Positions 35,091 through 62,905 of a DNA stretch of 64,000 nt are shown here, in pieces (the first letter of the stretch is position 1; every line of letters begins with the position of its first letter). Below the pieces are notes generated by a model. The model had not been told where the DNA came from. It made no database searches and saw only the letters and a list, made by a program, of their open reading frames with translations. This DNA is from Rhynchobatus australiae (lineage: Eukaryota). Both the position numbers and the translations under genes were made by a program. The DNA lies in NCBI GenBank assembly GCA_034780895.1, contig JAUZTB010000064.1:64355405-64419404 (forward strand). Reading direction: 5' to 3'.

Positions 35091-35217
35091 ATCTTGCCAT
35101 TTGTCCTGGTCTTCACGAAGCCGACTGTGGACTTTGTGTAGCTCCTCATGGCGTGCTTTACTGTGGGGCTGTACTGAATTGTCATCTTCTGGCCTCATGT
35201 CATTCATACTGACGCTT
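35091..35217 (-). CDS. LIMCH1: LIMCH1 exon H (SVSMNDMRPEDDNSVQPHSKARHEELHKVHSRLREDQDKWQD), DUF4757 region
   Basis: Matches recalled '[24 protein letters not shown]...EEDDKWQD'. Acceptor CTGCAG|, donor |GTAAGC, phase 2 to 0. Confidence 0.95.
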
Positions 35218-41771: not shown

Positions 41772-41807
41772 CCTGTATCATCAGACAGGGCTGCTGTAGG
41801 ACTGTAT
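41772..41807 (-). CDS. LIMCH1: LIMCH1 36-nt microexon G (YSPTAALSDDTG), phase 2-2
   Basis: Acceptor GGTCTTGTAG|, consensus donor GG|GTAAGT. Corresponds to recalled human 'YGPRTPVSDDAE'. Confidence 0.88.
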
Positions 41808-44759: not shown

Positions 44760-45098
44760 GTCCACAGAGTTTCATCCTCAGATTTTCTTCTTTTCTTTAC
44801 TTCCTGCTCAGTTCCTTTATTAATTCCACTCAATGTCTGGCCTCGCTGTGAACTGGGGACTGGGAGAAATTTATTAAAGGCAGCGCTGCTCTGTTTGGAC
44901 GTGGCTCTTATCCGCCGACTCATCATGTCATCTTTCTCTACATCTGGGCATCTCTCGTCTTCGTTTTCAGCTTCCTCACTGGAATCCTGAAGGCTTTCGT
45001 TTATAGTTACAGTGTGGGCAACCAGGACAGGAGATGGGGTCCTTCGAAAATACTCAGCTGTGCAAATATCACTAAGGAAAGTTTCTTCAGGTTTACAG
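44760..45098 (-). CDS. LIMCH1: LIMCH1 cassette exon F (CKPEE...PDVEKDDMMSRR...FNKFLPVP...ETLW), 339 nt, phase 2-2
   Basis: Resembles recalled 'KDDMMARR...NQFLPVP'. Acceptor CTCTTCTTCCATAG|, donor AC|GTGAGC. Confidence 0.9.
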
Positions 45099-45267
45099 CT
45101 ATGGAAGAAGAGGTAAATTAGGCAAAGAAGGAAAGAACCAACTAATAGAAAGCAAGGTAACAACACGATTTACAGGATGGTTAGATATGACACAAAATTA
45201 TCATTTCACATTTACAATTGATCATTTTAAAGCTTCTGAAAAAAAACCTGAAAATATTACAGTTTTG

Positions 45268-45680
45268 TTGGTATTGGTATATTATTGTCACTTGTACTGA
45301 GGTACAGTGAAAAACTTGTCTTGCATACCATTCGTACAGATCAANNNNNNNNNNNNNNNNNNNNNNNNNNNNNNNNNNNNNNNNNNNNNNNNNNNNNNNN
45401 NNNNNNNNNNNNNNNNNNNNNNNNNNNNNNNNNNNNNNNNNNNNNNNNNNNNNNNNNNNNNNNNNNNNNNNNNNNNNNNNNNNNNNNNNNNNNNNNNNNN
45501 NNNNNNNNNNNNNNNNNNNNAATAGTCTTATCACAGTGGGGTAGAAGCTGTCCTTGAGCCTGGTGGTATGTGCCCTCAGGCTCCTGTATCTTCTACCCGA
45601 TGGAAGAGGAGAGAAGAGACAGTGACCTGGGTGGGTGGGGTCTTTGATTATGCTGGCTGCTTCACCAAGGCAGCGAGAGC
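45268..45680 (-). mobile_element. Rex1/Babar-type LINE 3' end
   Basis: RCLGEAASIIKDPTHPGHCLFSPLPSGRRYRSLRAHTTRLKDSFYP. Confidence 0.85.
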
Positions 45681-46579
45681 TAAAGGCAGAGGAGGGGAAG
45701 CTGGTTTCCGTGGAAGTATTTTGGAAGCTTGGGTTGAAAAGGAGTCCAGTAGTCGCAGCAGCTACCTGTCTCTGATGACAGTGGGCTCTGGGTTCAGCAC
45801 CACCTACATCTGCATCCATTGCACACAAGCAAATCTTCAGGAGATTGGCTGTGCTGCAGATCCACCTGAAGACCAATGTGTTTAGACAAGCCTGAACAGA
45901 TGGGAACCTGCTGGCAGTGTCAGTTCCCACTGCCATGTCTTAAAGGGCAGCTTCTACTCAGAGGTTGACCACAATCCCAAGACCTTCAGGATCACATCCA
46001 ATGCTTCCACCCATGCAGCTGAGTGTCGGGCGGTGGGGGAGGTGGCCGCCGGACACAGCAGTGTTCTTTTCTGACAACACTTCCTGACGGGCTGGCTGTG
46101 TTCCCGACAGAGCTCACCTGTCCCGGGTGCTTAAAGGAGCCCCTATCCACATGAAGTTTGAGACCAGGAACAAGCCACATAGCCACCCTGCTGTTGCACC
46201 TGAAACCAACAACCACCTGGAACCACACCCTCCACCAGGCACTGCTGCTGCCCAGAGTCAACCTGGAGGCCTCGGGGCCCATTGAACTTGGCAGAGTCAG
46301 ACAATGCAGCGCAGGGCTTCTCTCCCCTCTCCTAATTCCCCCCATAACACAGTAAATCAGGTGCTGGTTATCAGTTGACGATATTAAATAGGATTTTACT
46401 GCTGAAAGCCATGCTTAGCTTTAGCTACAGCTAGCCAGGTTGGGTAAATGCAGTAATGGAATGGAAGGCTGAGCTGCTGGCTATAGAATATAAGCACTTG
46501 TTATAGCACCTCTTCTAGGCCAAGAGTAGCAGCAGCAGTACACTTTTGGTCCCTCATATAAGGGCCTTCCTTTGATCAT

Positions 46580-46755
46580 TTGTAGCTTCTTTGTAGACAC
46601 AAGAGACTGCAGATGCTGGAATGTGAAGCAACAAATAATCTGCTGGAGGAACTCAACTGTTCCTGATGCAGGGTTTTGACCTGAAATGTTGACAATTCCT
46701 TTTCTCCCACTGATGCTGCTCGACCTGCTCTGTTCCTCTAGCAGATTGTTTATCG
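46580..46755. mobile_element. Penelope-like pLTR with an inverted partial copy
   Basis: AATCTGCTGGAGGAAC (about 46637) is nearly complementary to GTTCCTCTAGCAGATT (about 46732). Central CTGATGCAGGGTTTTGACCTGAAATGTTGAC. Confidence 0.7.
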
Positions 46756-47929
46756 CTTCTTTGCACTCTGGCCCTTCCAAAGGGTCCCCAGCTGTGGCCT
46801 CCTGCCCAGCAGCATGTCAATTTTGTCCAACCCCTGGACAGGAACTGTAAGAAAAATTACTCATGTCCAGTCATTAAATTCAGCAGGGCCACTAGAAACC
46901 CAGCCCTGCCAGATTTCCCCAACTACCAAGCTCCCCTGCTGCATAAATATTAGGCCCATAAGTCTTTTGCATCTTCTGTAAAAGACAGTAGTGTCTGATC
47001 TCCTGCCAGAGCATAATTTTCTTTGAAACTGACCAGTTCCAATGAGCCTCAGTACAGAAAGGATGCAGAAACAGAGGGAAACGCAGCACAAAAGCAGCAG
47101 GAGAAAACACAAACAAAAACTCATGAAGGATTAATGAGGGAAAGTTAGGAAAGAAACTCATGGTGGTCTAAATTTGCTGTGTATTTTCTTTGCAGGAATA
47201 TGACTGGTTTAATTGAACAGAGGTTGGACTATTCCACGGTGCTCCACTGTCACACTCAGTTCTCAATGCAAGAGAAATATTTTTATTATTATCTAGAATG
47301 TGTTTGAGGTTAGTAGACGTTATGTAACTACAAATGCAATTCAGTTACATGGAGACTTGCTGATTGATTGCGCAAGTATTACTTTCCTACTCCTGTACTG
47401 CACTGTTATACCATTCTTCTCTAGCCAAGTCTATGTTATTCTTAGCTTCATATTATGAAAATTCAATTTTTACTAAGTTACCGTGTGGAGAATTATTGGC
47501 TGGAAATTCTTGTTGTTAGTCTTAGATTATTTAGACTGATACTAATATTTTCCTGGAACTGCAATACTTCATCCTAATAGGTATACAGTGAAAACAGAAA
47601 AGAGGCAAACAAAGTTGTGCAAAGATTCCTACAAATATTCCTTAAAACAACAAGATGGACAAAATGATGCAAACCCCCAGTGCAATTCTGCTTACTGTAA
47701 GTATACACTCATATTAGAAATGCCTGTTTACTAGTAGTACCATATGGATATTGCCACATTGTAGAACACATCACCAATGGCAAATGTACTAGCATGTAGC
47801 CAATGAGTTGTGAAAGATAAAATTGTGTTCTGGAACAACTCACCAGTGGGGTGAAAGGTTTGTTCATCTGGACCAACTGTGAAAAAAATCCATTGTTATA
47901 GGAAAAGTTTACAGTTATTCCTTTAAATG

Positions 47930-48342
47930 TCAGCTGCAGCTCAGCTGATAGCACTCTTATCTCTGAGTCAGAACATTGTGGATTCAAGTCCCATTCCAAG
48001 GGTTTGGGCACAAAAGTTAGTGTAATCTTGAGGGGATGCTGTGCGGTTGGAGCTGTTTCCTTCTGAATGAGACTTTTGAAGACTGGTTTGCCCTCTAACA
48101 TAGATGTAAAAGACCAATGGTACTTTCTCAAAAGACGGCGGGAGATTTATGTTGGTGTCCAGGCCAATACTTTTTCCATAATCAATGTTATAACAGATTA
48201 TCTGGTCATTTTCACATTGGTATTATTGGGAGCTTGATGTGAACAAATTGGCTCCACATTTCCTACATTTCTACTGACTGCGCTTCAAATGTAGTTCATT
48301 GGCTGTAAAGCACTCTGAGACCGCCTGAGATATGAAAGGGAT
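47930..48342 (+). mobile_element. DeuSINE (SacSINE1-like); older partial minus-strand copies at about 17490-17760 and 14935-15070
   Basis: tRNA-like head (GCAGCTCAGCTGATAGCAC...GGATTCAAGTCCCA), Deu-domain-like core (GATGTAAAAGACCAATGG...CAGATTATCTGGTCATT) and typical tail (TTCATTGGCTGTAAAGC). Confidence 0.72.
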
Positions 48343-48344
48343 TA

Positions 48345-48628
48345 TAAGCTATCTTTATTAGTCACAAGTACATTGAAACACACAGTGAAATGCAGCTTTG
48401 CATAGAATGTTCTGGGGGCAAGTATCACCACGCTTCCGGCGCCAACATAGTATGCCCACAACTTCCTAACCTGTACGTCTTTGGAATGTGGGAGGAAACT
48501 GGAGCAGCTGGAGGAAACCCACACAGTCACGTGGAGAATGTATAAACTCCTTACAGACAGCGGCCAGAATTGAACCTGGGTCACTGGCGCTGTAATAGTG
48601 TTACGCTAACCGCTATGCTACCGCGCCT
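48345..48628 (-). mobile_element. V-SINE
   Basis: Reverse complement of the V-domain and head (GGTTCAATTC), similar to the copy at 1-197. Confidence 0.78.
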
Positions 48629-48949
48629 GCCCATAAAAGCAAGGACTTCTAGTTCTTTCTTTCAGTCTTTGCTGGTTAGGCTGGTCCTCACCAAGAACCA
48701 ATGGGTGGGGCACATATGGTACATTTCCTGCCTGCTGGTCCATAAGGTGGAAATACTGACCTAAGAGAAACAGAGAATGTGAACCAAGGCTAATTTACTC
48801 TCCTTTTAATATCATCCAATTAATTGGTATTGAGACTAAAGAAATGGGGTTTCTAGACCCAATTCAGCAACAAACTGAAATCAGCCTCCTTAGAGGAGAC
48901 ATTTGGTTGCTTTGCATTTGCAGGACATCAGGAATCTCTCTAGACACAT

Positions 48950-49900
48950 GCTCAAAAGGCATTGGTGATGATAATCATCACTAAGTTGCTGCCTGCCTTC
49001 CACTTCTTCCACCTCCTGCTCTATTGCTGGCAGGTAGGATTGAATCCTAATTAATGGGAGATTGCTTTGCAATCAGTAGATCACCACGAATCTTGAGGCT
49101 CACTCTGCTGCACTCTGTCTCCTCTAGAGTGGTCCAGGCAGTGGACTTCATTGCTTGAGTACATGAAAGGAATAGTTTATCACACTGCATGAGGCAGCAA
49201 GGCATTCTGTCATTCATTATATGAATGTTACCCTCAAAAGCATGATTTGCATACCAGAGGTAAGAGCCATGTTTCTAGTCTTTCTCACACTGGCCCCCAC
49301 CCTTTCATTTGTAGTGAAGACAGATATACTGACGGTGAGGCCGAGTAATTGCAAATGAAAGCATCATTGCCACCTCTAGGGTATCAGGTACTGAACTGTC
49401 TGATCAAATAATCTATTGGTCATAGAGGGAATGAAACATCTGAGAGTTGACATATAGTGTCTGCTATCGCTCACCAAGTGGAAGACCATATTTCTGGTGA
49501 AGCCATGTGCTTGCTCCACTTGCCGCTTCCTTTCAAGAGATAATGAAATGTATTCAACTTTCTTGGAATAGAAAGTTTCTCTAACTTCCCTTATACATAA
49601 AAGTGTGCGATGTTGCAAATTTCCCCTACTCCAGGCTGAAAGGTGCTTGCTGCTTTCAAGTTCATTACTGCTGTGAGTGCCAGTGGTAAAAAAATCCTCA
49701 AAGGATCTGCAGTTGTGGCGGGATCATGTGACATTCGTCATTGAGAATGATCTCAGTGAAGGGGAGCTGTCTCATACATTTTTCTTTACTGAGAGGAACA
49801 TTGTTCACTGAAAACCGTGTGTGGATATAGCCCTTTGCCCAGAGCTCTTCTCCCACTCCTCCTCCTCCTCCCTTGCCCTATGAGTGCCTTCTGTTTGTTC
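48950..49900 (-). mobile_element. Decayed PIF/Harbinger (HARBI1-like) DDE transposase
   Basis: Collinear frameshifted remnants: GRRALGKGLYPHTVFSE, TAVMNLKAASTFQPGVGEICNI, CIREVRETFYSKK..YI, QVEQAHGF, DAFI, VLKQ..HCLDHSRG, RFVVI, then an acidic tail. Confidence 0.78.
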
Positions 49901-51590
49901 TCCTGGTTGTGCTGCATTCCAATGCCTCTTAAAGTAGTGAGCAATTAGTTATTGCTTGAAGTTCAAACAAACTCTTACAGCTCCTGACATAATACTCCCT
50001 GTAGACTTCAGATAAATTGAAGAAGTCTAGAAGCANNNNNNNNNNNNNNNNNNNNNNNNNNNNNNNNNNNNNNNNNNNNNNNNNNNNNNNNNNNNNNNNN
50101 NNNNNNNNNNNNNNNNNNNNNNNNNNNNNNNNNNNTAAATTGAAGAAGTCTAGAAGCACCAAATGCTTATTGAATTGAAACACGTTCTGTAGAAATCAAT
50201 CAGCAATTGATTTCAAGTACTTGATGATCCCCTTGAACATGACAAGTGGGGATAGAGGATGGTAAGGGGAGTGGCAGGGCAGGGTGGCGAGTGCAGGATT
50301 TGTGTTCCTTCCTGAGGCTGAATGCTTGATCTTCCATTTGAGGTTAATACCACTATTAAGTGATTCATTAAACTGCAGCTTGCTGGTAATGGTTTCAAGT
50401 CAGTATTGCATGTGAATTAGCATCGTGATCTGTTGACTCTGCACACACTGAATGCATGTGCTAATGCTCTTCCTTATAATCTGGCCAGAGTAACCTATGC
50501 AACGAAAGTGCACATAGGCATTGGAAATAAACCAATAACCATTGAGCCTGAACAGAGGGCACCTCTCGGATGAATTTTGCAGCAATTACCTCTAAGTTTA
50601 GTGAAGGAAATGATTGCTAGGCTGATGTTGTTTTCCTTGGGCAAATGGACACTGAGAGGAGAATTAATTGAGGCATAGGTATCCAGAAAGTCAAGGTGCA
50701 CCTTAACAAGTGCACTAAATGGTCATTGTAAAGTATTGTCAACATCCATTTTGGACATAGACCCATCGCCCAAATGAGTGGCACGTGAGACCCACAGTCT
50801 GAAGAGGAGATGCACCTTGTGTTGGACGGAAAGTCCAGTGTGTTACCAAGGCTAAGTGGGGTGTCTAATGGGCAGAGAGAGCCAGTGGGCATAGTCCCAA
50901 TCAGGATCAGGCAGTCAGGCTAGCTATCACGTGATGGGCTGAGGTCTGGAGGTGAGTTGGGGGAGGTGCGTTGTTGGGTTAGTAATCATGTAAATGCCAG
51001 GAGGGAGCCAGGAGGTATGACTGCCATCAGCCATCAGAGGTCAGAATGGCCTTACTGTCCCAGCAGAGAAACACGTACCTGACAACCCCAAAATTCCAAA
51101 TGGTATCAAACTAATCAGTGCAAATTAGCATCCTGAGCCAACATTTCCCATTATTCATAAACATATTACCAAACTTACAAATAGTGTAATGTAACAAATG
51201 TATCCAAATTATATTGCAAGAAAAAGAAAAACACAGCTCAGGAAACTAAATTGGAAACAGGAACACTTGTGCAGACTCTAGTGAAGTGGTTAGCACTTAT
51301 AACCGGCAGTGTAAATGGGTTGTGTAACAATATCTGGGCTGCAGCGTAGCCCATTTTTATTTTATGTTACTTTTGAAAAACACATTGAACAAATTATATT
51401 GTGGAAGCATGAAGTCTCCATATAACAAAACTACTTACAAAGCTGGAATTAGTGAACGAAGAGCCGATCACACGATGAGTGGCCTCAAGCCATGTGTTAA
51501 AAGAATCATGCTTATCAGGCTCAAGTCCACATGCTCAAGTGCTCAAGCATGCTCTCAGTCCAGACCAGCTGCAAGGAAGGCAAAATGTAC

Positions 51591-51977
51591 CTGATCTCAT
51601 TTTGGGAGGCAAGAATTACCTCACTCCCTGCAGAGATTTGGGATTTATCTCCCATTGCACCATCTTGTGAGTTGAGGATAACCGCTGAAGATACAGAGGG
51701 TAAGAGATGGCAGGTATAGGCTTTGATGGTGCAACTATCTGGCTCTTCTTCTGACTCACTGCATTGGCCAGCCCTGCTGATGCTTAACTTCTCCCAACGC
51801 TGCTGATCTATCTCCGTCACTGGGCCAAAATGCACAAAGCGCTGGTAGTTGGGTGAAGCACCCTTACTGCTTCTTGCCCTACGATAGGCAAGGTCATCTT
51901 GAGCTGCTTTTCTTACTTCAGTTCCAGAATTTGGCTTCACCTCAGAAATATTTCTAATTGGCTTGGAAGATTCCTCA
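51591..51977 (-). CDS. LIMCH1: LIMCH1 cassette exon E (EESSKP...QDDLAYRRAR...QRFVHFGPVTEIDQQRWEKLSIS...NEI), phase 2-2; alternative in-frame acceptor starting at 52010
   Basis: Resembles recalled 'DDFANRKAR...QKFVHFGPVTELDQQKWKRLSI'. Donor AG|GTACAT. The acceptor choice is uncertain. Confidence 0.88.
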
Positions 51978-52299
51978 CTTGACGAAGTTATAGAGAATGG
52001 AGAAAGATGACTGTTAGAAGCAGGCAACATTGAATTCATTAATCCCTGAACTATCATTGGTTAAAAGAGGAAGATACTCTAGTCACAAGCAATTTACTAC
52101 CAAAAATAACTATCTATCCAGCCTTCTCAACCATCTCTAGGTAAGTTGCTTTTTAGCTACACAGTTAACAAAATAAAAATGTGCAGAATTGGAGGTAACC
52201 TTTTGGCTTGGTTAGGAAGTAGGATATGGATAATAGGTATCATGGGTTTGCACAAATATTGGCAGACTGTGACTAGTGAAGATCTCAGGGATCTGTAAA

Positions 52300-53130
52300 A
52301 TATTTTTCCCTGTGCTTATAAATGACTTGATGAGGGAATAGAAAGCAATATGTCCAGGGTTATTAATGATACTGATTGGGTGATAAATATTGTAAGCTGG
52401 ACCAAACTGTTGCAGAGACATATTAATAGATCAAGTGAGTGATCAAAACTGGCAGGTGGAGTTCATTGTGGGAAAGTGTGAAATCATCATTTTCAAAGTA
52501 TTTTCTAAATGGTGAGAAGGTTTATATAGTAGATGAGCAGAAAATTAAAGCATTAATATCTGTAAAATCTAATGAACTAAAACCTCAGGAGGGCTGGAAT
52601 ACAATGGGTTGGAAGTTCAGAGCTCTGGCTATCTCCTATCTCCTGTCATGCAGTCAGCTCTGGGCACTGCAACTTAGGAGGACACACTGCCTTTGGAAGA
52701 AATATGGCATGGGTTAACTCGAATGATACTAAAAGGGTTAAATTATGAGCACAAATTAACAGACTATACATGAGTACCGAAGATTGAGGGTTGATATAAT
52801 TGAGATGCTTAGGATGCATTTGTTGGGGTTGATTTGGAGAAACTAATTCCTCTGGTGGAAGAGTCCAAGAATGTATAAAATTAAAATCAGAACTGAGTCA
52901 TACAGAGCTGATGTCAGGAAACAATTCTTCAGCAGAAACGGTAGTGGAAATCTGACAATGGCTAAGAGCTATAAAGGCTGGGTCATACAATGATTTCAAA
53001 ACTGAGAGTGAAATTTTGTTAGCTGTTGCGATTTATGGAAACATGGAGAGAGTTAAGAAGCAAATTTACAATGATGGTCAAACAGGCTTGAGTAGCTGAA
53101 CTGCCTCCTCCTGTTGCCATATCCCTACAT
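52300..53130 (+). mobile_element. Degenerate CR1 LINE fragment
   Basis: Remnants of the WQMEFN/KCE, QLWA and RLRxDIIE motifs. Confidence 0.7.
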
Positions 53131-54696
53131 TAGCTGGCTGTTATGTTGTTTTTTCTACCAGCACATTGCCTTAACCAATGCTTTAACATTAAATCTTTCA
53201 GATCTGCACATCAAGAATACAACTGCAACAAAATCCAATGTAGTCCAGAGTTAAGCAGAAATGGAAGTTAAGTGTTGCTGCCAAGGGTCAGAAAATAGAT
53301 CAGTGCACACCAGCCGTGTGTCACTTCAAAGGTGAGAAGAAAAGAGAGGAAATTAGGAAGAGATTGATGGTGAATAATTCTACTCCATTTCCTAATGGCA
53401 AGCACAACAATGATAAACACAGAGGACTGCTGGAGGTCAACAATCTGCCCTCTTGTTTAAAATGGTACACTGCTCTGGGGAGNNNNNNNNNNNNNNNNNN
53501 NNNNNNNNNNNNNNNNNNNNNNNNNNNNNNNNNNNNNNNNNNNNNNNNNNNNNNNNNNNNNNNNNNNNNNNNNNNNNNNNNNCTGGGGAGACCAGCAAGA
53601 AAACAAACTTTGACAAAACACCTCCAGAAACACATGCCTATTTCTGTATGGGTAAATGAGATTTATTTAGAAAGAGTAAATATAGGTATGAGGTATGTGC
53701 CCTTTCAGTAACATTGACAAAGGCAGGAATTTTATTCTACTAGATAACAGTTGTGCTTATCATTGAAGCAGACTAGTGTGAAGTAATACTGGAGGGTTAT
53801 ATTTTTAAGGATAAAAGGGTATTCATCCATAATTAGGTTGTTTGACTGCCTGAATTAACCAGAACAATATTTGCATTTCAGGAGCCATCCATGTGGAGGA
53901 ATGCAGTGATTACTACCATTGGGATCACTTCATAGGCTACCTGCTTAAGAAAAATTACAAAGAGAAAGTTAATGGTTCATGATCATTGAATTGTTGTTGG
54001 TACTTTAGGGCTATCAGGCTGAATACAGAGTAACATGGCTTAGTCTCTTCCCCAACAGTTCATCAGAGCACTTCTATTACGATGGGGAAACTTTTACTTC
54101 ACACAGCCACGTGTTTCTGCCTCTCCAACACAACCAACTCATTAACAACCAGTTCTGTTATGTTATTCCTCTATGGATACTAAACAGTTGGGAACGGCCC
54201 TGTTTATTTCATTTTGTATCTTTAAAACCAGTATTAAAAGAGCAAAGTGATGTAAACCTTCGATGTGGTTAAAATGAAACAGATTCCAAACAAAACATTA
54301 ATCAGCAGGAACAGTCCCCCATCGGTGACTGGGTTTGGAAGCAGATAACTGTTTTTTTATTAAAAGAAGGCTCAGTGATCCTTGAAGAAATGCTTTAGGT
54401 TAAACAACATAATATGTGGTAGAGTTTATGCAATGCTTTGTTACTTTAAATTATGGACAATTTGTTGATGTCAACATCACACTAATCATTATTGCTAGAT
54501 TTAATATGGTCATATTAAAACTAAAAACATGTATTAGAAGTAGCTGAGTCTTTGTACAGGTAATTATTATTTTTTAATATGTAATTTCATGTTTCTAATT
54601 AGATTAAAAAAATAATGTAACACTCAATAGCTCAATAATATGAAAAAATACAAAACAAGTACAACTACAACAACAGAGTGGGAGATTGGTAACAAC

Positions 54697-54954
54697 CTGG
54701 TATCAGTGGAAAGCTTGAGCCTCTCCCATATTTCCATATCAGCTGATGTGATAGAGGGATGAATGAAGGTGTGAGGCTCTTGCCGATTGGTAAAGCCAAC
54801 CAGGGCCTTTCGCCGAGCCAGATCATCGCGTTCTATATCTGGGCTTTTCACCGGCTCGTTGTCTTTGTGCCCGTTCTTTTGCTGTGACTTCAGCATCACG
54901 CCTGCTTCCTGAGGGATAATAACTTCACTCTCTGCAGCCTGAGTATGACTTTTG
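54697..54954 (-). CDS. LIMCH1: LIMCH1 cassette exon D (SKSHTQ...PDIERDDLARRK...ITSADMEIWERLKLSTDT), 258 nt, phase 2-2
   Basis: Resembles recalled 'PDLHKDDLAQQR...ITEADLETWERLKVS'. Acceptor TTGTTCAG|, weak donor AG|GTTGTT. Confidence 0.87.
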
Positions 54955-55214
54955 CTGAACAATTGCACACAAGTCAAGGAGGGGGTAAAAAAACACAGAA
55001 AAACAGTGAGAAGGCAGAAAACAAATAGATAAGTGAAATTTCAAGGTGCGCACCAGTTTCTAGTATGTTAGATTGGGAACACAGAGGTTGTTAGTTGTAG
55101 AATATTGGAAATGAAATCATATGAAGTTGGATAACTGCTGAGGTTGAGAGGGTTGAGAGCTTCAAGTTACAAGGAGGGAACATCACCAATAGCTTGTTCT
55201 GTCCAACCATGTAG

Positions 55215-55660
55215 ACACCAGGGCCAAAAAAGCTCACCAGCACCTCTACTTCCTCAGGAGGCTGAAGAAATATGGCATATCCCTTTTGACCCTCACCAAT
55301 TTTTATCGATGCACCATAGAAAGCATCCTATCTGGATACATTATGGCTTGGTATGGCAACTGCTGTGCCCATGACCACAAGAAACTGCAGAGAGTTGTGG
55401 ACACAGCTCATCACATCATGAACACCAGCCTCCCCTCCATGGGCTCTATCTATACTTCTCGCTGCCTTGGTAAAGCAGCCGCATAATCAAAGACCCCACC
55501 CACCCTGAACGTTCTCTCTTCACCGACCCCCCCCCCCCCCCCACAGCCCATTGGGCAGAAGATACAAAAGCCTGAAAGCATGTACCACCAGGCTCAAGGA
55601 CAGCTTCTATCCTGCTGTTACAAGACTCCTGAATCTACCTTGTTATGACCTTGCACCTTA
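55215..55660 (+). mobile_element. Rex1/Babar-type LINE 3' end (DUF1891-like)
   Basis: TLTNFYRCTIESILSGYIMAWYGNC...KKLQRVV. Confidence 0.85.
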
Positions 55661-55689
55661 GTGATACTATTGACACTACTAGGTGACTG

Positions 55690-55968
55690 TATCGCAGAAC
55701 AACTGCACTTACAGAGAAAGTGTAGTACAGGCAGACAATAAGGTGCAAGGTCATAACAAGGTAGATTGTGAGCTCAAGAGTCCATCTTATTGTACTATGG
55801 AACCATTCAGTAGTCTTATTACAGCAGGATAGAAGCTGTCCTTGAGCCTAGTGGTACATGCTTTCAGGGTTTTGTATCTTCTGCCCGATAGGTCGAGGGG
55901 GTGGTCATAAGAGAATATCCAGGGTGGGTGGGGTCTTTGATTATGCTGGCTGATTTACCAAGGCAGCA
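55690..55968 (-). mobile_element. Rex1/Babar-type LINE 3' end, inverted relative to the adjacent copy
   Basis: Reverse complement of 55476-55634 plus 3' UTR. Confidence 0.85.
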
Positions 55969-55969
55969 A

Positions 55970-56568
55970 GAAGCTTGCCAGTCACTTCAACTCCTCATCA
56001 CAAATATGTCAGTCCTCAGCCTCCTCCACTGCCTGGAGAAGTCCAAGCNNNNNNNNNNNNNNNNNNNNNNNNNNNNNNNNNNNNNNNNNNNNNNNNNNNN
56101 NNNNNNNNNNNNNNNNNNNNNNNNNNNNNNNNNNNNNNNNNNNNNNNNNNNNNNNNNNNNNNNNNNNNNNNNNNNNNNNNNNNNNNNNNNNNNNNNNNNN
56201 NNNNNNNNNNNNNNNNNNNNNNNNNNNNNNNNNNNNNNNNNNNNNNNNNNNNNNNNNNNNNNNNNNNNNNNNNNNNNNNNNNNNNNNNNNNNNNNNNNNN
56301 NNNNNNNNNNNNNNNNNNNNNNNNNNNNNNNNNNNNNNNNNNNNNNNNNNNNNNNNNNNNNNNNNNNNNNNNCCCCTTGTGCCCACCCCGCCTCCCCTCT
56401 TTTGTCCACCTATCATTGCTCTGCTTTTCCCTCCTACATATTGGGCTTCCCCTTTTCCTATCTTCGGTCCTGAAGAAGAGTCCTGATCCGAAACATTGAC
56501 CGCCTGCTTTTCTCCATGGATGCTGCCTGGCTCACTGAGTTCCTCCAGCATCATTGCGTTTTTCATCA
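55970..56568 (+). mobile_element. Penelope-like element 3' part: GIY-YIG C-terminal remnant plus pLTR with hammerhead core
   Basis: ASHFNS...NMSVLSLLHC remnant before the gap. After the gap, a pLTR with CTGAAGA...GAAA that is highly similar to 12824-13010. Confidence 0.75.
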
Positions 56569-56742
56569 CAATGGGCTGAATGGCCTTCTACGTCATAAGG
56601 AAATGTAAAGTATGAAAATTACATTCCAATTAAGTTTTATATGGGCAGCACAGAGAAATAATGGCACTATGCAAAATATCTGGGCCACTGGCTTACTTCA
56701 GGCAGGCAGCAGGTGGAATGCACCCACTGACAAACCTATTAC

Positions 56743-56802
56743 CTCAAAAAAAGGAGTAGATCTTCCTTGAGAACCTTTTCACATTGCAAATTGACCTGCT
56801 GT
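56743..56802 (-). CDS. LIMCH1: Candidate 60-nt LIMCH1 cassette exon C' (QQVNLQCEKVLKEDLLLFL), phase 2-2
   Basis: Acceptor TTCACTTTCTAACCACAG|, donor GAG|GTAATA. Length is divisible by 3, open, and in the same phase as its neighbours. No homology recalled. Confidence 0.5.
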
Positions 56803-56902
56803 CTGTGGTTAGAAAGTGAATAGGACAGTAAAAAGTAGTAAGCTAAATATATAATATACAGTATATGTATATATATTGGTTTGTAGGTGACTAAAGGCAC
56901 AC

Positions 56903-57211
56903 CTCTCCATTTTCTGCTCTTGTCTTTGTGAAGCTCCATTAGCTCTACATGAGGAATGCTTGATACTCGCCCAGAGCTCTCTATCCTTCTTTGTGCACGG
57001 TCTGGCTAAGAACTGATTGACCACTGCCTTGGGCTTGCACTGATGGAGCTGAGCCTTCCTCAGAGCGAAGTCATCTTTCTCAAGATCTGGAACTTTCTGT
57101 TCCTCCTCCTCGGACTCGGAATCGTCCTGATAGCTCATTAAAAATGTATTCTCCCTTCGGAGGATGATATCTGGACTGGTTTGCCCACTGCTTTCTTGCT
57201 GTTGTTTTTGT
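56903..57211 (-). CDS. LIMCH1: LIMCH1 cassette exon C (QKQQQ...DIILRRENTFL...PDLEKDDFALRK...KME), 309 nt, phase 2-2
   Basis: Open frame overlapping ORF 56809..57138. Resembles recalled 'DIVLRKENSFL...PDLEKDDFAARR'. Acceptor CCTCTGTGGTAG|, donor AG|GTGTGC. Confidence 0.9.
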
Positions 57212-59879
57212 CTACCACAGAGGTAAAAGGTTGTGAATATTTGTCATCTAAAAGAACGAAAAGCATTTTACAGCAAGGCAAAGAGTCTGTGCCATTAACA
57301 TCACTCACTAATCAAGAAGCCCAACCGTCAGTATTATAAAAGATTTTTCTTCGTCATGCCATTTTCCACAAACAGTCCTCTACAATTTTAACTCCACTTT
57401 CATGCTCAAGTGTTTTGTGGCACTGTACCACGACAAGCTTGGTTTTCCAAGATGCTGCAGCATTGCTGGTGCCTTGCACAGAGAGCAATTTAGAAAGTAT
57501 ATCACCAGTGATTTTCTGTCTTTGGCTTCCAGTTGAGCACCAGCAATTTCTTTTATTTGACAAGCTGTTTTCTGTCCATGGAATGCCACAAAATCTTGGA
57601 AAATTTTACTCCCGAGTTTCTTAGGACTCTTCAACGTTTGTTATGCAACTCACGGCTAAAACAAATTGTTAGGGTCTTGGTAATAGATGATGCAACCACT
57701 GATAACAGTTAGTGTCAATCAGTTAGAATTATACTAACTACATACAGGAATTCATTTCCCCACAACTGTTAATGAAATGCAGCCATCTGTCAATGTGATA
57801 AAGCACATGTGCTGCAATATACAAGGTATAGTTCAGTATCACCACAGGCTGAATCGTAGGGCACATCTGTGAACAAATGGTCCTTGAAATCTGATCTCAT
57901 CCAACAAAAGATAGGCAGGAGACAGGGTGATACTACATGTGTCTGTTCTTGGGAGCACAGGGACAATGACATTGATGTTTCATAATAATAAGGAAGGTGT
58001 TCAGCTTGTGTTACTAATTGAGGAGTAGGGTTGGGTGAGTGTGAGTAGGTGGGAAATTGTTGTCTCCAAATACCATTCAAACCCTTTCAGAACCTTTTAA
58101 AGGGATGGTACCCTGTGGCTGGAAACTGCAGAGAAATTTCAGAAACAGGATGGAGAGAGATTGAAAGTCTTCAGATGCTGTGCTGAGGAATGAGTCAAGA
58201 CAGTGGATAGGAGGAGTGAAATCCCTTATCCCACTGCAACTATCTCCCCACCCTGTCCCACAACCTCACCACCACTATCTCTTCCTGGCAGTACAAAGGC
58301 AAACCTCTACTAATTGTTGGAGAGTGTCACAGAAATGGTTAACAGCAGGAGCTGAACCATTGAGACATGTCTGCAATGCTAAAAATGTTTTAATTAACCT
58401 CAGCAGATTGTTAAGCTCAGACCAATGCTCAGACTTCGGGCTCACTTGCTCACCTTTATCTTCTACAATCATCATACTTCCACATGTACATTCCTACTCC
58501 AATATTGATATCTTGATTGTTGACCACACTGCAAATCTTTGCAGGTCCCTCCCCATACAGCCAAGGTTGTTTCCCTGAGCCCCTTCTCAAAACAATACCA
58601 TGGCGGTTTCTTACAAGAGAAGGAAGCGATGTCTCTCTCTCTCTCTCACAGACAGAAGAGAGAAGCTGGTTGGGAGTGCATGCCTTTGTTGGAAATGACA
58701 TGCAGGTTGTCTTTGGGGTTTAACCTCTTTCTCCTTGCCTATTTACATCTCATCCTATACGACCTGCATTACAAACTGTTGCTACTTTCACCATTGGATA
58801 ATGCAAGAAGAAAAGGGTAGTTTTCCTGTAGATGTGGTGGTCACTAAGATTGCCAAAGTACCAACTTTACAGGATAGGCTAAAAGAGAAGTTGTCATGTG
58901 GCAAGTCAGTAGCTACATGTGCAGAAGAAAGATGATAGGATGCCTCAATTGCCAGTTCCCAAAGACAAAAACATGTACTAGCTCTGTTACAAATGGTAAG
59001 AAGAGACTTCAAGAGCCCAAGCTACTGAGGAAGGTGGAGGGTAATTGATCAAGAAATTCTAGGTACATAGGGTGGCCTGCCAGCAAACTTAGTGCAGGAA
59101 AGAGCTCACTTCTAACTTTTCTTGTTCTGTCATGCAAAGCATAGCAACCATCCTGTCCATTGTGGGACATGGTCAGCTCCACAGACAGGACTATGATGAT
59201 CACAGAGCCTCTGCTGACAGCCCAGACAAGTTTTTGCCCAGCTATGCTTGGCTCCTAGGTCCAAAGTCAGACTCACTGGAAAACTCAACTGTAATGGAAA
59301 TAAACTGAAATAGCCCAGCACCAGCGCAAAGCTGTCCCCACAAGCAAGTATCCATGTGAAAGAGCTCAGAATATATACAACAAATGGCCTAGAAACATTA
59401 ATAAGCAGTTTATGAGTATTTAACTGTGACTAACCCAGATGGAATGGATAAGTCCTTTGAACAGAGCAGTTATTGACATCATTTGTATGGTGATTTTATC
59501 ATTAAAAAAATCAGATGCAGAGAGAGAGTTCAATGTCAAAAAAAGGCCCTATAAGAAACACAGCATCCTTATTTAAATACAACTTATATCAAACCAATCT
59601 AGTTTAGTACTTATGGCACAGAATAAACATGTGCATACGAGCACTACCACCACCTGGACCCTAAGGTGCCCATTGTATCCCTGTAATACAGGTGCAGCAC
59701 CATCAACTTTCAAGGTCCTAAAAACAGAGGAACTCCATTACTATTACTTTGTAAAAGATTTGTAGTTAATTTGCATATATAAATAATGCATAGAGAATAA
59801 CATATACTTGCTGGTACAAAGATTAATGTCCCTGAAAATTGAGTAAGGCTTGTCACAATACATGTGTTGACACTTTTAG

Positions 59880-60410
59880 GATGAAAGAATTCAAGAATCT
59901 GTGTAAACTATTGGTTCCCTTATTTAAGGAAGGATTTTAATGTTAGATGCAGTTCAGAGAAGACTTATTAATCAATATTTGGAGTGAACAGGTTGACTTA
60001 TGAGGAAGGATTGGATAGGCTATGTATGTACCTGCTAAGACTAGTGAAGGGTGGCTTCATTGAAACAACAAGATCACTTAGGATCTTGACAGGGTGGATG
60101 CAGAGAGATCAACTTGCGTCACTTCTAAAACTAAAGGGTAGGCCACTGACTACAGAGATAGCGATTTTTCTTTTAGATAGTCTTAATCCTTTGGAACTCT
60201 CTTCTTCAGAGGACGGTGGGAGCAGAGGCTATGATTATTTTAAGGCAGTGGTAGATACATTCTTGTTAAGCAAGAGGGGAACGGTTACAGTGGGTAGTCA
60301 GAAATGGGGAGCTGAGGTTGCAATCAGATCATCCACAACCTTATTAAAGGCAGACTGGGTTTGAGAGGCCGAGTGGTCGACCCTTGCTCCTAATTTGTAT
60401 GTTCGTATGT
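59880..60410 (+). mobile_element. Degenerate CR1 LINE 3' fragment
   Basis: Remnants of VQRR, LTYEEGLDRL and GGFIET motifs with a short-repeat tail (TATGTTCGTATGTT). Confidence 0.75.
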
Positions 60411-61550
60411 TCACACTACAGATTACTCTTTGGGATAGTTTCCAACTTTGTGATCCTGTGGAGAGTCATGTGTACCTGGATGTTTGAAACAAATCTGGTC
60501 AGATGGTGCTCAGCAATATCCTGAACATGGAACATCTATCCCAAAATCCCAAATGAACTCCCTACAGATGAAGCTCCATATGAGCATGAAGTTTACAAAG
60601 TTATCCTTCATATATAATAAATGAATATCTGCTGTTCATTTATGTGACAGCACCTTATTCCTCTCTGTTTATTTTGTAATGCATGTTTAGTTTCACTAAA
60701 GGCAATTTTCTGAATTCCTGTCTGCAAACCCATTCATTGGGAACATACTTTGGGAATCTGAGCACGTAAACTACACCCCCTCATTAATTTCCATGATTAT
60801 CATTTCCAATATGTGTCTTTGTGGCACAGTTCAGGGCCAGGAGGGAGAATGTGTACAAAATCCCTGTCATCTCCTGGACATGCCAAACCAAAATGTGCTA
60901 TTAAAGTGTATTTATTAATTGGTGATAGGGTTATGTTGCTATATCCGCAGAAATAAAAAAAAATCAATACTTCTATCGAACTGTTGGTTGTCTAGTGATA
61001 TCATGCCAAGATGAGTAAGCCTGCTCTGTAATCTTTGGATAAGTACAAAGCAGTGTCTTCAGTACAATCTACTGTGATTGAAGTATTCACACAGCATGTT
61101 ATTGAGCAAACTTGAATACAGTCATGCAGAAAATATTGCTTGATGTGTGTATGATGAATATGTCCAAAAATACAAAGCCAAATGAGTATCAGCCAGCATA
61201 CTGGGGTTACACACACACATTCCTCAGCCTCCTCACTTATTCCTATTATACCATGTCGAAGTCAATGATTCAAAATCATTACCTTAAAATTACCATTCGA
61301 TAACAAAATCTTTAAGGTGAATTTTCAATTTTTAAAAATTTTAAAAATATTTTAACTAATTGTCTTCAAATTTCATTAGATTGAGATCTACTAGTGGCGA
61401 ACTTAGTATTTCTCAGAAAGCTGTAATTTAATGACTAGTTATGGTTTACAAAATTCTCGAAGAACACCATGGTATAATAATAAAGCCCACTAAGCTAACA
61501 CATCATGCCTTTACTTCATCTCTATGAGAGCTCTACACCACACTGCTGAC

Positions 61551-61871
61551 CTGCGATATCTCTCAGATGCTGGCATGACTGTGATACCAGCTTTCTGAAT
61601 TCTTTTCAACTTCTTCACTTCTTCTTCATCTTTCCCCTCCCATCTTGTACTTTCTTTGGATGCTCTGTGCCCAGGGTCTTCTGCCAGACAAGCTTGTAAC
61701 TGGTTCTTGAGGCCACCAGCATCCTCAGCAGGAGCCAGTTCAAACTTTACTGCTGGCTTGGAATCATTAATCGCTTGAGATTTGGAAAATGTAGATGATG
61801 ACTCAGCAGAATCTTCACCCTGAGAGGATTCTTCACTGCGTTCTTCTTGTATAGGCTCAGGATGACTATGA
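61551..61871 (-). CDS. LIMCH1: LIMCH1 cassette exon B (SHSHPEPIQEE...KRIQKAGITVMPASERYR), 321 nt, phase 2-2
   Basis: Hand-translated and open throughout (no ATG, so absent from the ORF track). Resembles recalled long-isoform LIMCH1 'KRLEQAGIKVMPAAQRF'. Tandem acceptors TAG|TCATAG|, donor AG|GTCAGC. Confidence 0.88.
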
Positions 61872-62652
61872 CTATCGAGTTATACAAGATATATTAAGGG
61901 CAAAAATGCAATGGACTTTAATCACTTAATTTACATTATAAGTTACAGATTATCATAAACCATTTATATCAACAAATTTTATTCTTGATATCATTTGAGA
62001 TCATGACCTGTTATCCCAGATGTCAGCAGCCAACAGGGATGAACTCTTATATAATTATGATAGCAGCCAACTGAAGCCTAGCCAGAGCAGGAATTCCAAA
62101 ATGCTAAACCATGCAACCCAAATTTCTAACTTTTAAGTTGAAGGCAGATCTGTTTCACCAAATCTGAATAAAGATCAAATCCATCTCTTTGAAGGACAAC
62201 AGGCCANNNNNNNNNNTGTTATTTGGGAATTTTTCTCAAAAAAGCTGGGCCATGCTGAATACATCTAAACCTGTAACAATAAAATTCATTTGGCAGACTG
62301 ACACAAATTTACCACACAGTTCAACCATTTCCAAGTGCAGTCACATCAATTTCTGCCTTGCAGTTAAGAATTCATGAATGTGGCAAAGAACAATTTTCAG
62401 TGGGGGAAATATACACATGAGTGTTGTCTGCTTGTCAGTCACTAGAATAAACTGTTAAGATTTGTGAGATGACACAGTTTAGGAAGAGTATTTTGTGAAC
62501 CATTTCCATCAACTTGCAATCACTCAAAATATCAACAAGCTTAATGGAATCATATTAAAGTAGCACCATCAATGAACATCTGTTGGGGTTTTATGAATGT
62601 TACTTAATACCTGTAATTCATACAACATAATCTAATGATGTCAGTTACCCAC

Positions 62653-62905
62653 CTAAAAGGGCGTTCTGCTCCTACAGGTGAGGTGGTGTTGCTCCAACTC
62701 TTTCGGTAATTTTCTCCTCGCTCTGCTCGCTTTTTTCGGAGAGGTGCTGGCATGTAAGCTGTATGATTGTGCTTGTTGGGTAGATATTGGTTAAAAGGCA
62801 AGGATGATTTTGGTTCATTATAGGAAGATCGTCTGACTGACATGTCGTCTCGCTTTACATCAGGTGTCTTCTGTGTCACATCTGATTCAGAATCACTACC
62901 ACGAC
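62653..62905 (-). CDS. LIMCH1: LIMCH1 coding exon A ([26 protein letters not shown]...FNQYLPNK...[11 protein letters not shown]...ERPF), phase 1 to 2
   Basis: Translation closely matches recalled human LIMCH1 ([25 protein letters not shown]...[26 protein letters not shown]). Acceptor TTCCAAAAG|GT, donor AG|GTGGGT. Confidence 0.95.

What the first reader, a model, noticed from the sequence alone, without database searches (positions are those of the whole stretch)
44760..62905. One repeated protein module per exon: the LIMCH1 insert looks like a tandem exon-duplication array
Seen: five exons each encode one copy of a shared motif. [134 protein letters not shown]. The consensus is about PDxx[KR]DD[MLF]xxR[RK]-x(9-12)-F[LIV]x(1-3)P, extended in C, D and E by Txx[D]xxxWxx[LI]. 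C, D, E and F are symmetric phase 2-2 exons. Inference: this is a repeat domain, which I do not know as a named family, that arose by exon duplication. Splicing could then tune its copy number from 1 to 5, and so the valency for a partner such as myosin II or actin.
Basis: partly seen in the sequence, partly recalled or inferred. Interest (0 to 1): 0.75.

Follow-up and report, generated by a model that had tools for sequence, protein, structure and literature searches.

The report
Hidden repeat in LIMCH1 muscle exons
The optional exons of the cytoskeletal scaffold gene LIMCH1, described in mice as a muscle-specific stretch with no recognisable domains, carry four extra copies of a conserved short motif that is also repeated in the sister gene LMO7 and in jawless fish, and splicing them in likely multiplies a docking site for a partner that is still unidentified.

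Summary
The repeat is real. The window holds LIMCH1 of a ray-like cartilaginous fish. Exons A, C, D, E and F each encode a copy of a ~45-residue two-part motif. Copy A is the start of Pfam DUF4757, and the cassette exons split that domain. The motif is far better conserved than its flanks, is repeated in LMO7, hagfish and lamprey, and has duplicated again in paddlefish, teleosts and Xenopus. It is predicted disordered with short helices, so it is a linear-motif array, not a folded domain. Corrections: the spacer is 13-14 residues, not 9-12; exon B has no copy; exon A is phase 1-2; phase symmetry alone proves nothing. The myosin II idea is weakened because the published essential myosin-binding residues (WQ-WK) lie outside the repeat, and mouse muscle includes the exons together rather than one at a time. 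No paper found describes the repeat; the mouse knockout paper calls the insert domain-less. This scan noted the same repeat earlier in cat LMO7 (e1-8042806). The partner is unknown. A conserved PP1-type docking motif in copy E is a lead.

The parts
62653..62905 (-). Exon A, present in all isoforms examined, phase 1-2; repeat copy A = Pfam DUF4757 positions 1-54
   Evidence: joined to B in a contig of a related species
61551..61865 (-). Exon B, cassette, phase 2-2; no repeat copy; carries its own conserved predicted helix near its end
56903..57211 (-). Exon C, cassette, phase 2-2; repeat copy C with both halves and the upstream SPD-I-I-L-R element
   Evidence: its junctions were not seen in the laid contigs
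54697..54954 (-). Exon D, cassette, phase 2-2; repeat copy D with both halves; the unit duplicated again in ray-finned fish
51591..51977 (-). Exon E, cassette, phase 2-2; divergent copy E; second half strongly conserved
51827..51841 (-). RVxF-like (PP1-docking type) pentapeptide inside copy E; predicted only
   Evidence: pattern kept in 96 of 96 stored proteins that hold copy E (many are isoforms); RVxF definition is recalled
44760..45098 (-). Exon F, cassette, phase 2-2; repeat copy F (first half plus FLP, no W helix)
41772..41807 (-). Exon G0, 36 nt, phase 2-2; the frame resumes here after the insert
35091..35217 (-). Exon G; DUF4757 positions 75-116; first half of the WQ-WK myosin II-binding helix
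33065..33222 (-). Exon H; DUF4757 positions 116-167; second half of the WQ-WK helix

Best explanation
The LIMCH1 cassette exons C-F hold four extra copies of the motif that opens DUF4757, likely made by old tandem duplication, and including them likely turns one docking site into several for a partner at the muscle-cell cortex. Shown: five copies, exon borders, conservation, the same repeat in LMO7 and jawless fish, and further copies in several lineages. Predicted: each copy is disordered, with a first short helix (PDxE[KR]DD-hydrophobic-xx-R[RK]) and, in C, D and E, a second one (F...[TS]xxDxxxWxxL). Inferred: (1) each half folds on binding; (2) inclusion raises avidity for that partner and puts 536 residues between copy A and the WQ-WK myosin helix, with copy F now preceding that helix; (3) this accounts for the published shift of the long isoform to the sarcolemma; (4) in adult muscle it works mainly as an on/off switch (1 versus 5-6 copies), with intermediate forms as minor products. 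The partner is most likely a component of cortical actomyosin; I put myosin II heavy chain at about 25%.
For: Repeat statistics. Identity of window residues to 36 non-cartilaginous-fish orthologues: core 0.59 (48 positions), second half 0.52 (58), flanks 0.20 (325); p 7e-11 and 1e-8, positions treated as independent. Copies group by position across species, not by species; A, LMO7 copy 1 and lamprey copy 1 form a branch at 99/93 (class labels were set by sequence pattern, so partly circular). Paddlefish has three 90-residue units 98-99% alike whose ends match exon D's ends; several teleost-type proteins have two diverged D copies; both Xenopus species have two F copies. Hagfish has 4 first-half copies; lamprey has 3 plus 5 more with only the W half. 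LMO7 has up to 6. Model of a gecko orthologue: mean pLDDT 43, only short helices, three of five on repeat halves. Spliced D-E-F and A-B contigs in a related species. Mouse: six exons, 454 residues, muscle-specific; deletion weakens muscle and moves LIMCH1 off the sarcolemma (PMC10052820).
Against: No binding is shown for any copy. The copies have diverged into position-specific types, each conserved separately, which fits specialised roles as well as simple valency. A and E are not detectably similar pairwise. The mouse deletion also removes exon B's own conserved block and copy E's RVxF-like site, so the phenotype need not come from the repeat. Exon A's phase and the placing of the SPD-V-I-x-R element in the exon before A mean the first duplication was not a plain copy of exon A. 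The near-identical paddlefish triplet may be an assembly error, and I saw no genomic exon structure for those species.
Confidence: 0.55

Rival explanations
1. One reading: each copy binds myosin II (or actin) directly, and splicing tunes valency stepwise from 1 to 5.
For: Copy A lies in the DUF4757 fragment that is sufficient to co-precipitate NMIIA/B (10.1101/2021.05.12.443820); LIMCH1's N-terminal coil binds the NM-IIA head (PMC5391182). The W half resembles the second half of the WQ-WK helix: that window ranked 1st or 2nd of about 1200 in 9 of 9 related proteins. Annotated cartilaginous-fish isoforms carry 1 copy (33 of 69), 2 (9), 3 (2), 4 (9) or 5 (16).
Against: Mutating WQ alone or WQ-WK abolishes activity, and those residues are in exons G/H, not in the repeat. 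The W half has T/S where the essential first W is, and with the pattern-fixed columns removed 18% of 49 comparable windows from the charged C-terminal part score as well. Mouse inclusion is coordinated. The isoform counts are predicted gene models, not full-length reads.
Confidence: 0.25
2. The insert is a signalling scaffold whose copies have specialised: copy E recruits protein phosphatase 1 through an RVxF site, and the basic and acidic blocks are kinase sites; valency is secondary.
For: [RK]xVxF is kept in 96 of 96 stored copy-E proteins, changes falling on the two free positions, even in a stingray whose copy-E first half has decayed. Copy types are separately conserved. Phosphorylation next to the myosin-binding helix regulates Lmo7 (10.64898/2026.01.24.701484).
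Against: The residues after the pentapeptide are equally conserved, so it may be part of a longer site; it is in one copy only; RVxF patterns are common (own knowledge); no paper holds LIMCH1 with RVxF.
Confidence: 0.2
3. The insert acts mainly as a spacer that breaks DUF4757 and lowers non-muscle myosin II binding in mature muscle; the repeats act within the molecule or between LIMCH1 molecules.
For: The insert falls inside DUF4757; the Lmo7 paper notes that DUF4757 is disrupted in some splice variants.
Against: A spacer does not need motifs conserved from hagfish to mammals or repeated re-duplication; the model shows no packing between copies (low confidence).
Confidence: 0.15
4. The similarity is chance or compositional bias in charged disordered sequence.
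For: Only three columns are invariant; A-E is not significant.
Against: Composition-keeping shuffles are beaten; a profile finds untrained LMO7 copies at E 3e-9 and 3e-8 among 4398 frames; the 150 listed hits of 221 among 1.84 billion proteins all match LIMCH1 or LMO7 best.
Confidence: 0.02

Closest known systems
[quoted passage not shown]
   Same: Copy A is profile positions 1-54; in several LMO7 proteins the last copy stands in for the start of the profile, and a paper notes DUF4757 in two regions of human LMO7 (PMC8657913).
   Different: Pfam treats it as one domain; copies C-F do not match it. The WQ-WK core is not repeated.
Muscle-specific mLIMCH1 insert (Penna et al. 2023, PMC10052820)
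   Same: Same position and kind of in-frame cassette block: 5 exons and 536 residues here, 6 exons and 454 residues in mouse, 7 and 544 in human.
   Different: The paper describes it as disordered with no identifiable domains; the repeat is not mentioned in the passages and Discussion I read. Muscle specificity was not tested in this fish.
Splice-regulated tandem motif arrays of muscle scaffolds (titin PEVK, nebulin repeats, Xin repeats; recalled)
   Same: Short, largely disordered units in tandem, often exon-encoded, with copy number changed by splicing or duplication.
   Different: No sequence match; few copies, long unrelated linkers, position-specific divergence, partner unknown.
LMO7 insert repeat
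   Same: Same motif, up to six copies in the same place in the paralogue.
   Different: Only copy 1 is clearly one-to-one with LIMCH1, and LMO7 has more than one copy in one exon.

Membership tests
LIMCH1 orthologue | Best matches are LIMCH1 with CH, DUF4757 and LIM but no PDZ; colinear exons | tested here: met
   the LMO7 paralogue lies on another contig. The CH-coding exons lie outside the window and were not examined.
DUF4757 (PF15949) | Match above the Pfam cut-off | tested here: met
   exons A, G and H score 53.8, 46.5 and 77.6 bits against a cut-off of 27
DUF4757 (PF15949) | Copies C-F match the profile on their own | tested here: not met
   0 of 4 matched at E up to 1
Tandem exon-duplication array | Homologous unit in neighbouring exons | tested here: met
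Tandem exon-duplication array | Symmetric, equal intron phases in all units | tested here: inconclusive
   C-F are 2-2, but so are repeat-less B and G0, and A is 1-2
Tandem exon-duplication array | Duplicated unit coincides with exon borders | tested here: inconclusive
   paddlefish 90-residue unit matches exon D's ends at protein level, genome not seen; LMO7 has two copies in one frame
Folded repeat domain | Stable fold per unit or stacked units | tested here: not met
   pLDDT under 50 for 743 of 851 residues, only short helices; no solved relative
Myosin II-binding motif (WQ-WK) | Both tryptophans with WQ first | tested here: not met
   the W half has T/S at the first W
Myosin II-binding motif (WQ-WK) | Binds the myosin II head | not testable with these tools
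   needs a binding assay
PP1 RVxF docking motif | [RK]x[VI]x[FW] in a disordered region, conserved | tested here: met
   pattern definition recalled
PP1 RVxF docking motif | Binds PP1 | not tested
   the single complex job went to myosin

The most novel reading that the evidence does not exclude
LIMCH1 and LMO7 carry an undescribed vertebrate-wide binding motif whose copy number is a splice-set dial. The W-helix half is a stand-alone myosin-contacting unit descended from the WQ-WK helix (expanded to seven copies in lamprey), so the muscle isoform is a multivalent myosin II cross-linker that also brings PP1 through copy E. Loss of these sites would explain the weakness in exon-deleted mice and part of myotonic dystrophy mis-splicing.
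Probability: 0.15. Interest if true: 0.8.

Novelty: new member of a known kind. Interest (0 to 1): 0.5.

Why it matters
The mouse knockout shows that this insert is needed for normal muscle force and calcium release and that it is mis-spliced in myotonic dystrophy, but its authors had no functional element to test and named its interactors as future work (PMC10052820). The repeat supplies exact residues to mutate and peptides to fish with, and applies to LMO7 as well. It is a useful handle on an open question rather than a new kind of system.

Tried and rejected
Complex prediction of copy D (stingray orthologue P0012 555-604) with a sawfish myosin-9 head (P0402 4-782): score 0.00, verdict 'no answer', alignments not used, peptides untested by the tool; no evidence either way. 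ESM Atlas with copy D: three unnamed or unrelated clusters at 0.92 with low recognition; discarded. PDB profile search: only ribonuclease at E 0.17 or worse; chance. Run search: no RNA holder listed on record; of 4 runs laid, only X2 gave spliced contigs. Splicing-factor words (YGCY, TGCATG, ACTAAY, TCTT) around cassette exons: no enrichment over other exons. Conservation in 10 cartilaginous fish topped out at 0.7, probably because some rows were cut wrongly; not used. One-to-one matching of LIMCH1 and LMO7 copies beyond copy 1: not resolved. Homology of the W half with the WQ-WK helix: inconclusive. A recalled likeness of the first half to the N-terminus of caldesmon was not tested. Invertebrate orthologues were not obtained; 71 weaker profile hits were not visible. 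Friedberg 2009, on splicing of CH-LIM proteins, is not held and could mention the repeat. No supplements were read.
Full report
Identity. The minus strand of the window encodes LIMCH1 of a ray-like cartilaginous fish: exon A's best relatives are shark and ray LIMCH1 proteins, and full-length relatives map exon by exon across the window. The paralogue LMO7 lies on another contig.

Observation. Exon borders with AG/GT ends give A as phase 1-2 and B, C, D, E, F and G0 as phase 2-2; the insert B-F is 1608 nt, 536 residues, and the frame from A to H is open. In run X2, a related species about 87% alike whose RNA status is a guess, one contig joins D-E-F at exactly these borders and another joins A-B; exon C's junctions were not seen, and the other 3 runs laid gave no exon joints among the rows shown. 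Six of 10 copy pairs beat all 1000 shuffles, three were reached by 3-12 shuffles and A-E is not significant; none of 26 control pairs beat all shuffles.

Anatomy. Copy A is DUF4757 positions 1-54, exons G and H supply positions 75-167, and the insert splits the domain; C-F do not match Pfam. The unit has a first half (PDxE[KR]DD-hydrophobic-xx-R[RK], usually after an acidic run) and a second half (F...[TS]xxDxxxWxxL) in C, D and E. An upstream SPD-[IV]-[IV]-x-R element precedes copy C inside its exon but precedes copy A from the previous exon, so the first duplication was not a plain copy of exon A. A model of a gecko orthologue is disordered (743 of 851 residues under pLDDT 50) with five short helices: two in exon B's block and three on repeat halves.

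Conservation and history. LMO7 in this genome has at least four copies, two in one uninterrupted frame beside an assembly gap, and up to six in other vertebrates. Hagfish has four first-half copies; lamprey has three, plus five that keep only the W half, so the halves can be multiplied separately. Paddlefish has three 90-residue D units 98-99% alike with exon D's ends, several teleost-type proteins have two diverged D copies, and both Xenopus species have two F copies. The triplet could be an assembly error; the diverged pairs are unlikely to be. Copies group by position across species (labels partly circular); only copy 1 is one-to-one between LIMCH1 and LMO7. A profile search of 1.84 billion representatives gave 221 hits; the 150 listed all match LIMCH1 (124) or LMO7 (26) best, and 28 of 31 scanned carry DUF4757.

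Splicing. Among 69 cartilaginous-fish proteins, 33 have one copy, 9 two, 2 three, 9 four and 16 five; these are predicted models. In mouse the six exons are included together in adult skeletal muscle (PMC10052820), so an on/off switch is better supported than a graded dial. Tissue specificity was not tested in this fish.

Mechanism. Best reading (0.55): a duplicated linear docking motif whose inclusion raises avidity for a cortical partner and lengthens DUF4757, fitting the published sarcolemmal location of the long isoform and the weakness after exon deletion. Binding, partner and avidity are inferred. Myosin II is the natural guess because copy A lies in the fragment that binds it, but the residues shown to be required are WQ-WK in exons G/H. 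The W half resembles the second part of that helix, yet lacks the first W and scores no better than 18% of comparable windows in a less circular test. Copy E keeps an RVxF-like pentapeptide in 96 of 96 stored proteins, a lead for PP1 docking; the RVxF definition is recalled.

Literature. Eight searches found no description of the repeat. Seen: PMC10052820 (passages and Discussion), 10.1101/2021.05.12.443820 (passages and section 9), 10.64898/2026.01.24.701484 (passages and section 11), and passages of PMC5391182, PMC8657913, PMC3305314, PMC5839775 and PMC13607784. No whole text or supplement was read, Friedberg 2009 was not held, and subscription papers are mostly outside the library. PMC10052820 calls the insert disordered with no identifiable domains; PMC8657913 notes DUF4757 twice in LMO7 without calling it a repeat. 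This scan recorded the same repeat in cat LMO7; that is not independent evidence.

Verdict. A real, old and apparently unpublished motif array in a known spliced region of a known gene, of a kind familiar from muscle scaffolds. It makes an open question testable, but its partner is unknown. Interest 0.5.

Noticed in passing
window 61630-61551 (-), end of exon B: A separate conserved block (K-L-x-R-[IL]-[QE]-x-A-G-I-x-V-[ML]-P-A) is the most confidently predicted helix of the insert; found across LIMCH1 and in 0 of 11 LMO7/lamprey proteins checked. No Pfam match.
   Followed up: partly
window 61871 and 61865 (-): Exon B has two AG acceptors 6 nt apart, both in frame; the X2 contig and a stingray protein fit 61865.
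   Followed up: partly
P0168 (lamprey), residues 273-710: Seven W-helix units, five without the first half, more alike to each other than the jawed-vertebrate copies are; a second lamprey model shows a short isoform with one of them.
   Followed up: partly
L004:2033-1150 (-), LMO7 locus on G000:C11: A large LMO7 exon with at least two repeat copies runs into a 296-base N stretch; further copies may be hidden there.
   Followed up: no
window 41772-41807 (-): 36-nt exon G0 has two TGCATG words within 250 nt downstream (background 0.15 per 250 nt); it may be separately regulated.
   Followed up: no
window 45121-45741, 48226-48846, 55057-56919: Intronic stretches with very high depth in all four runs, that is, common interspersed repeats.
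   Followed up: no
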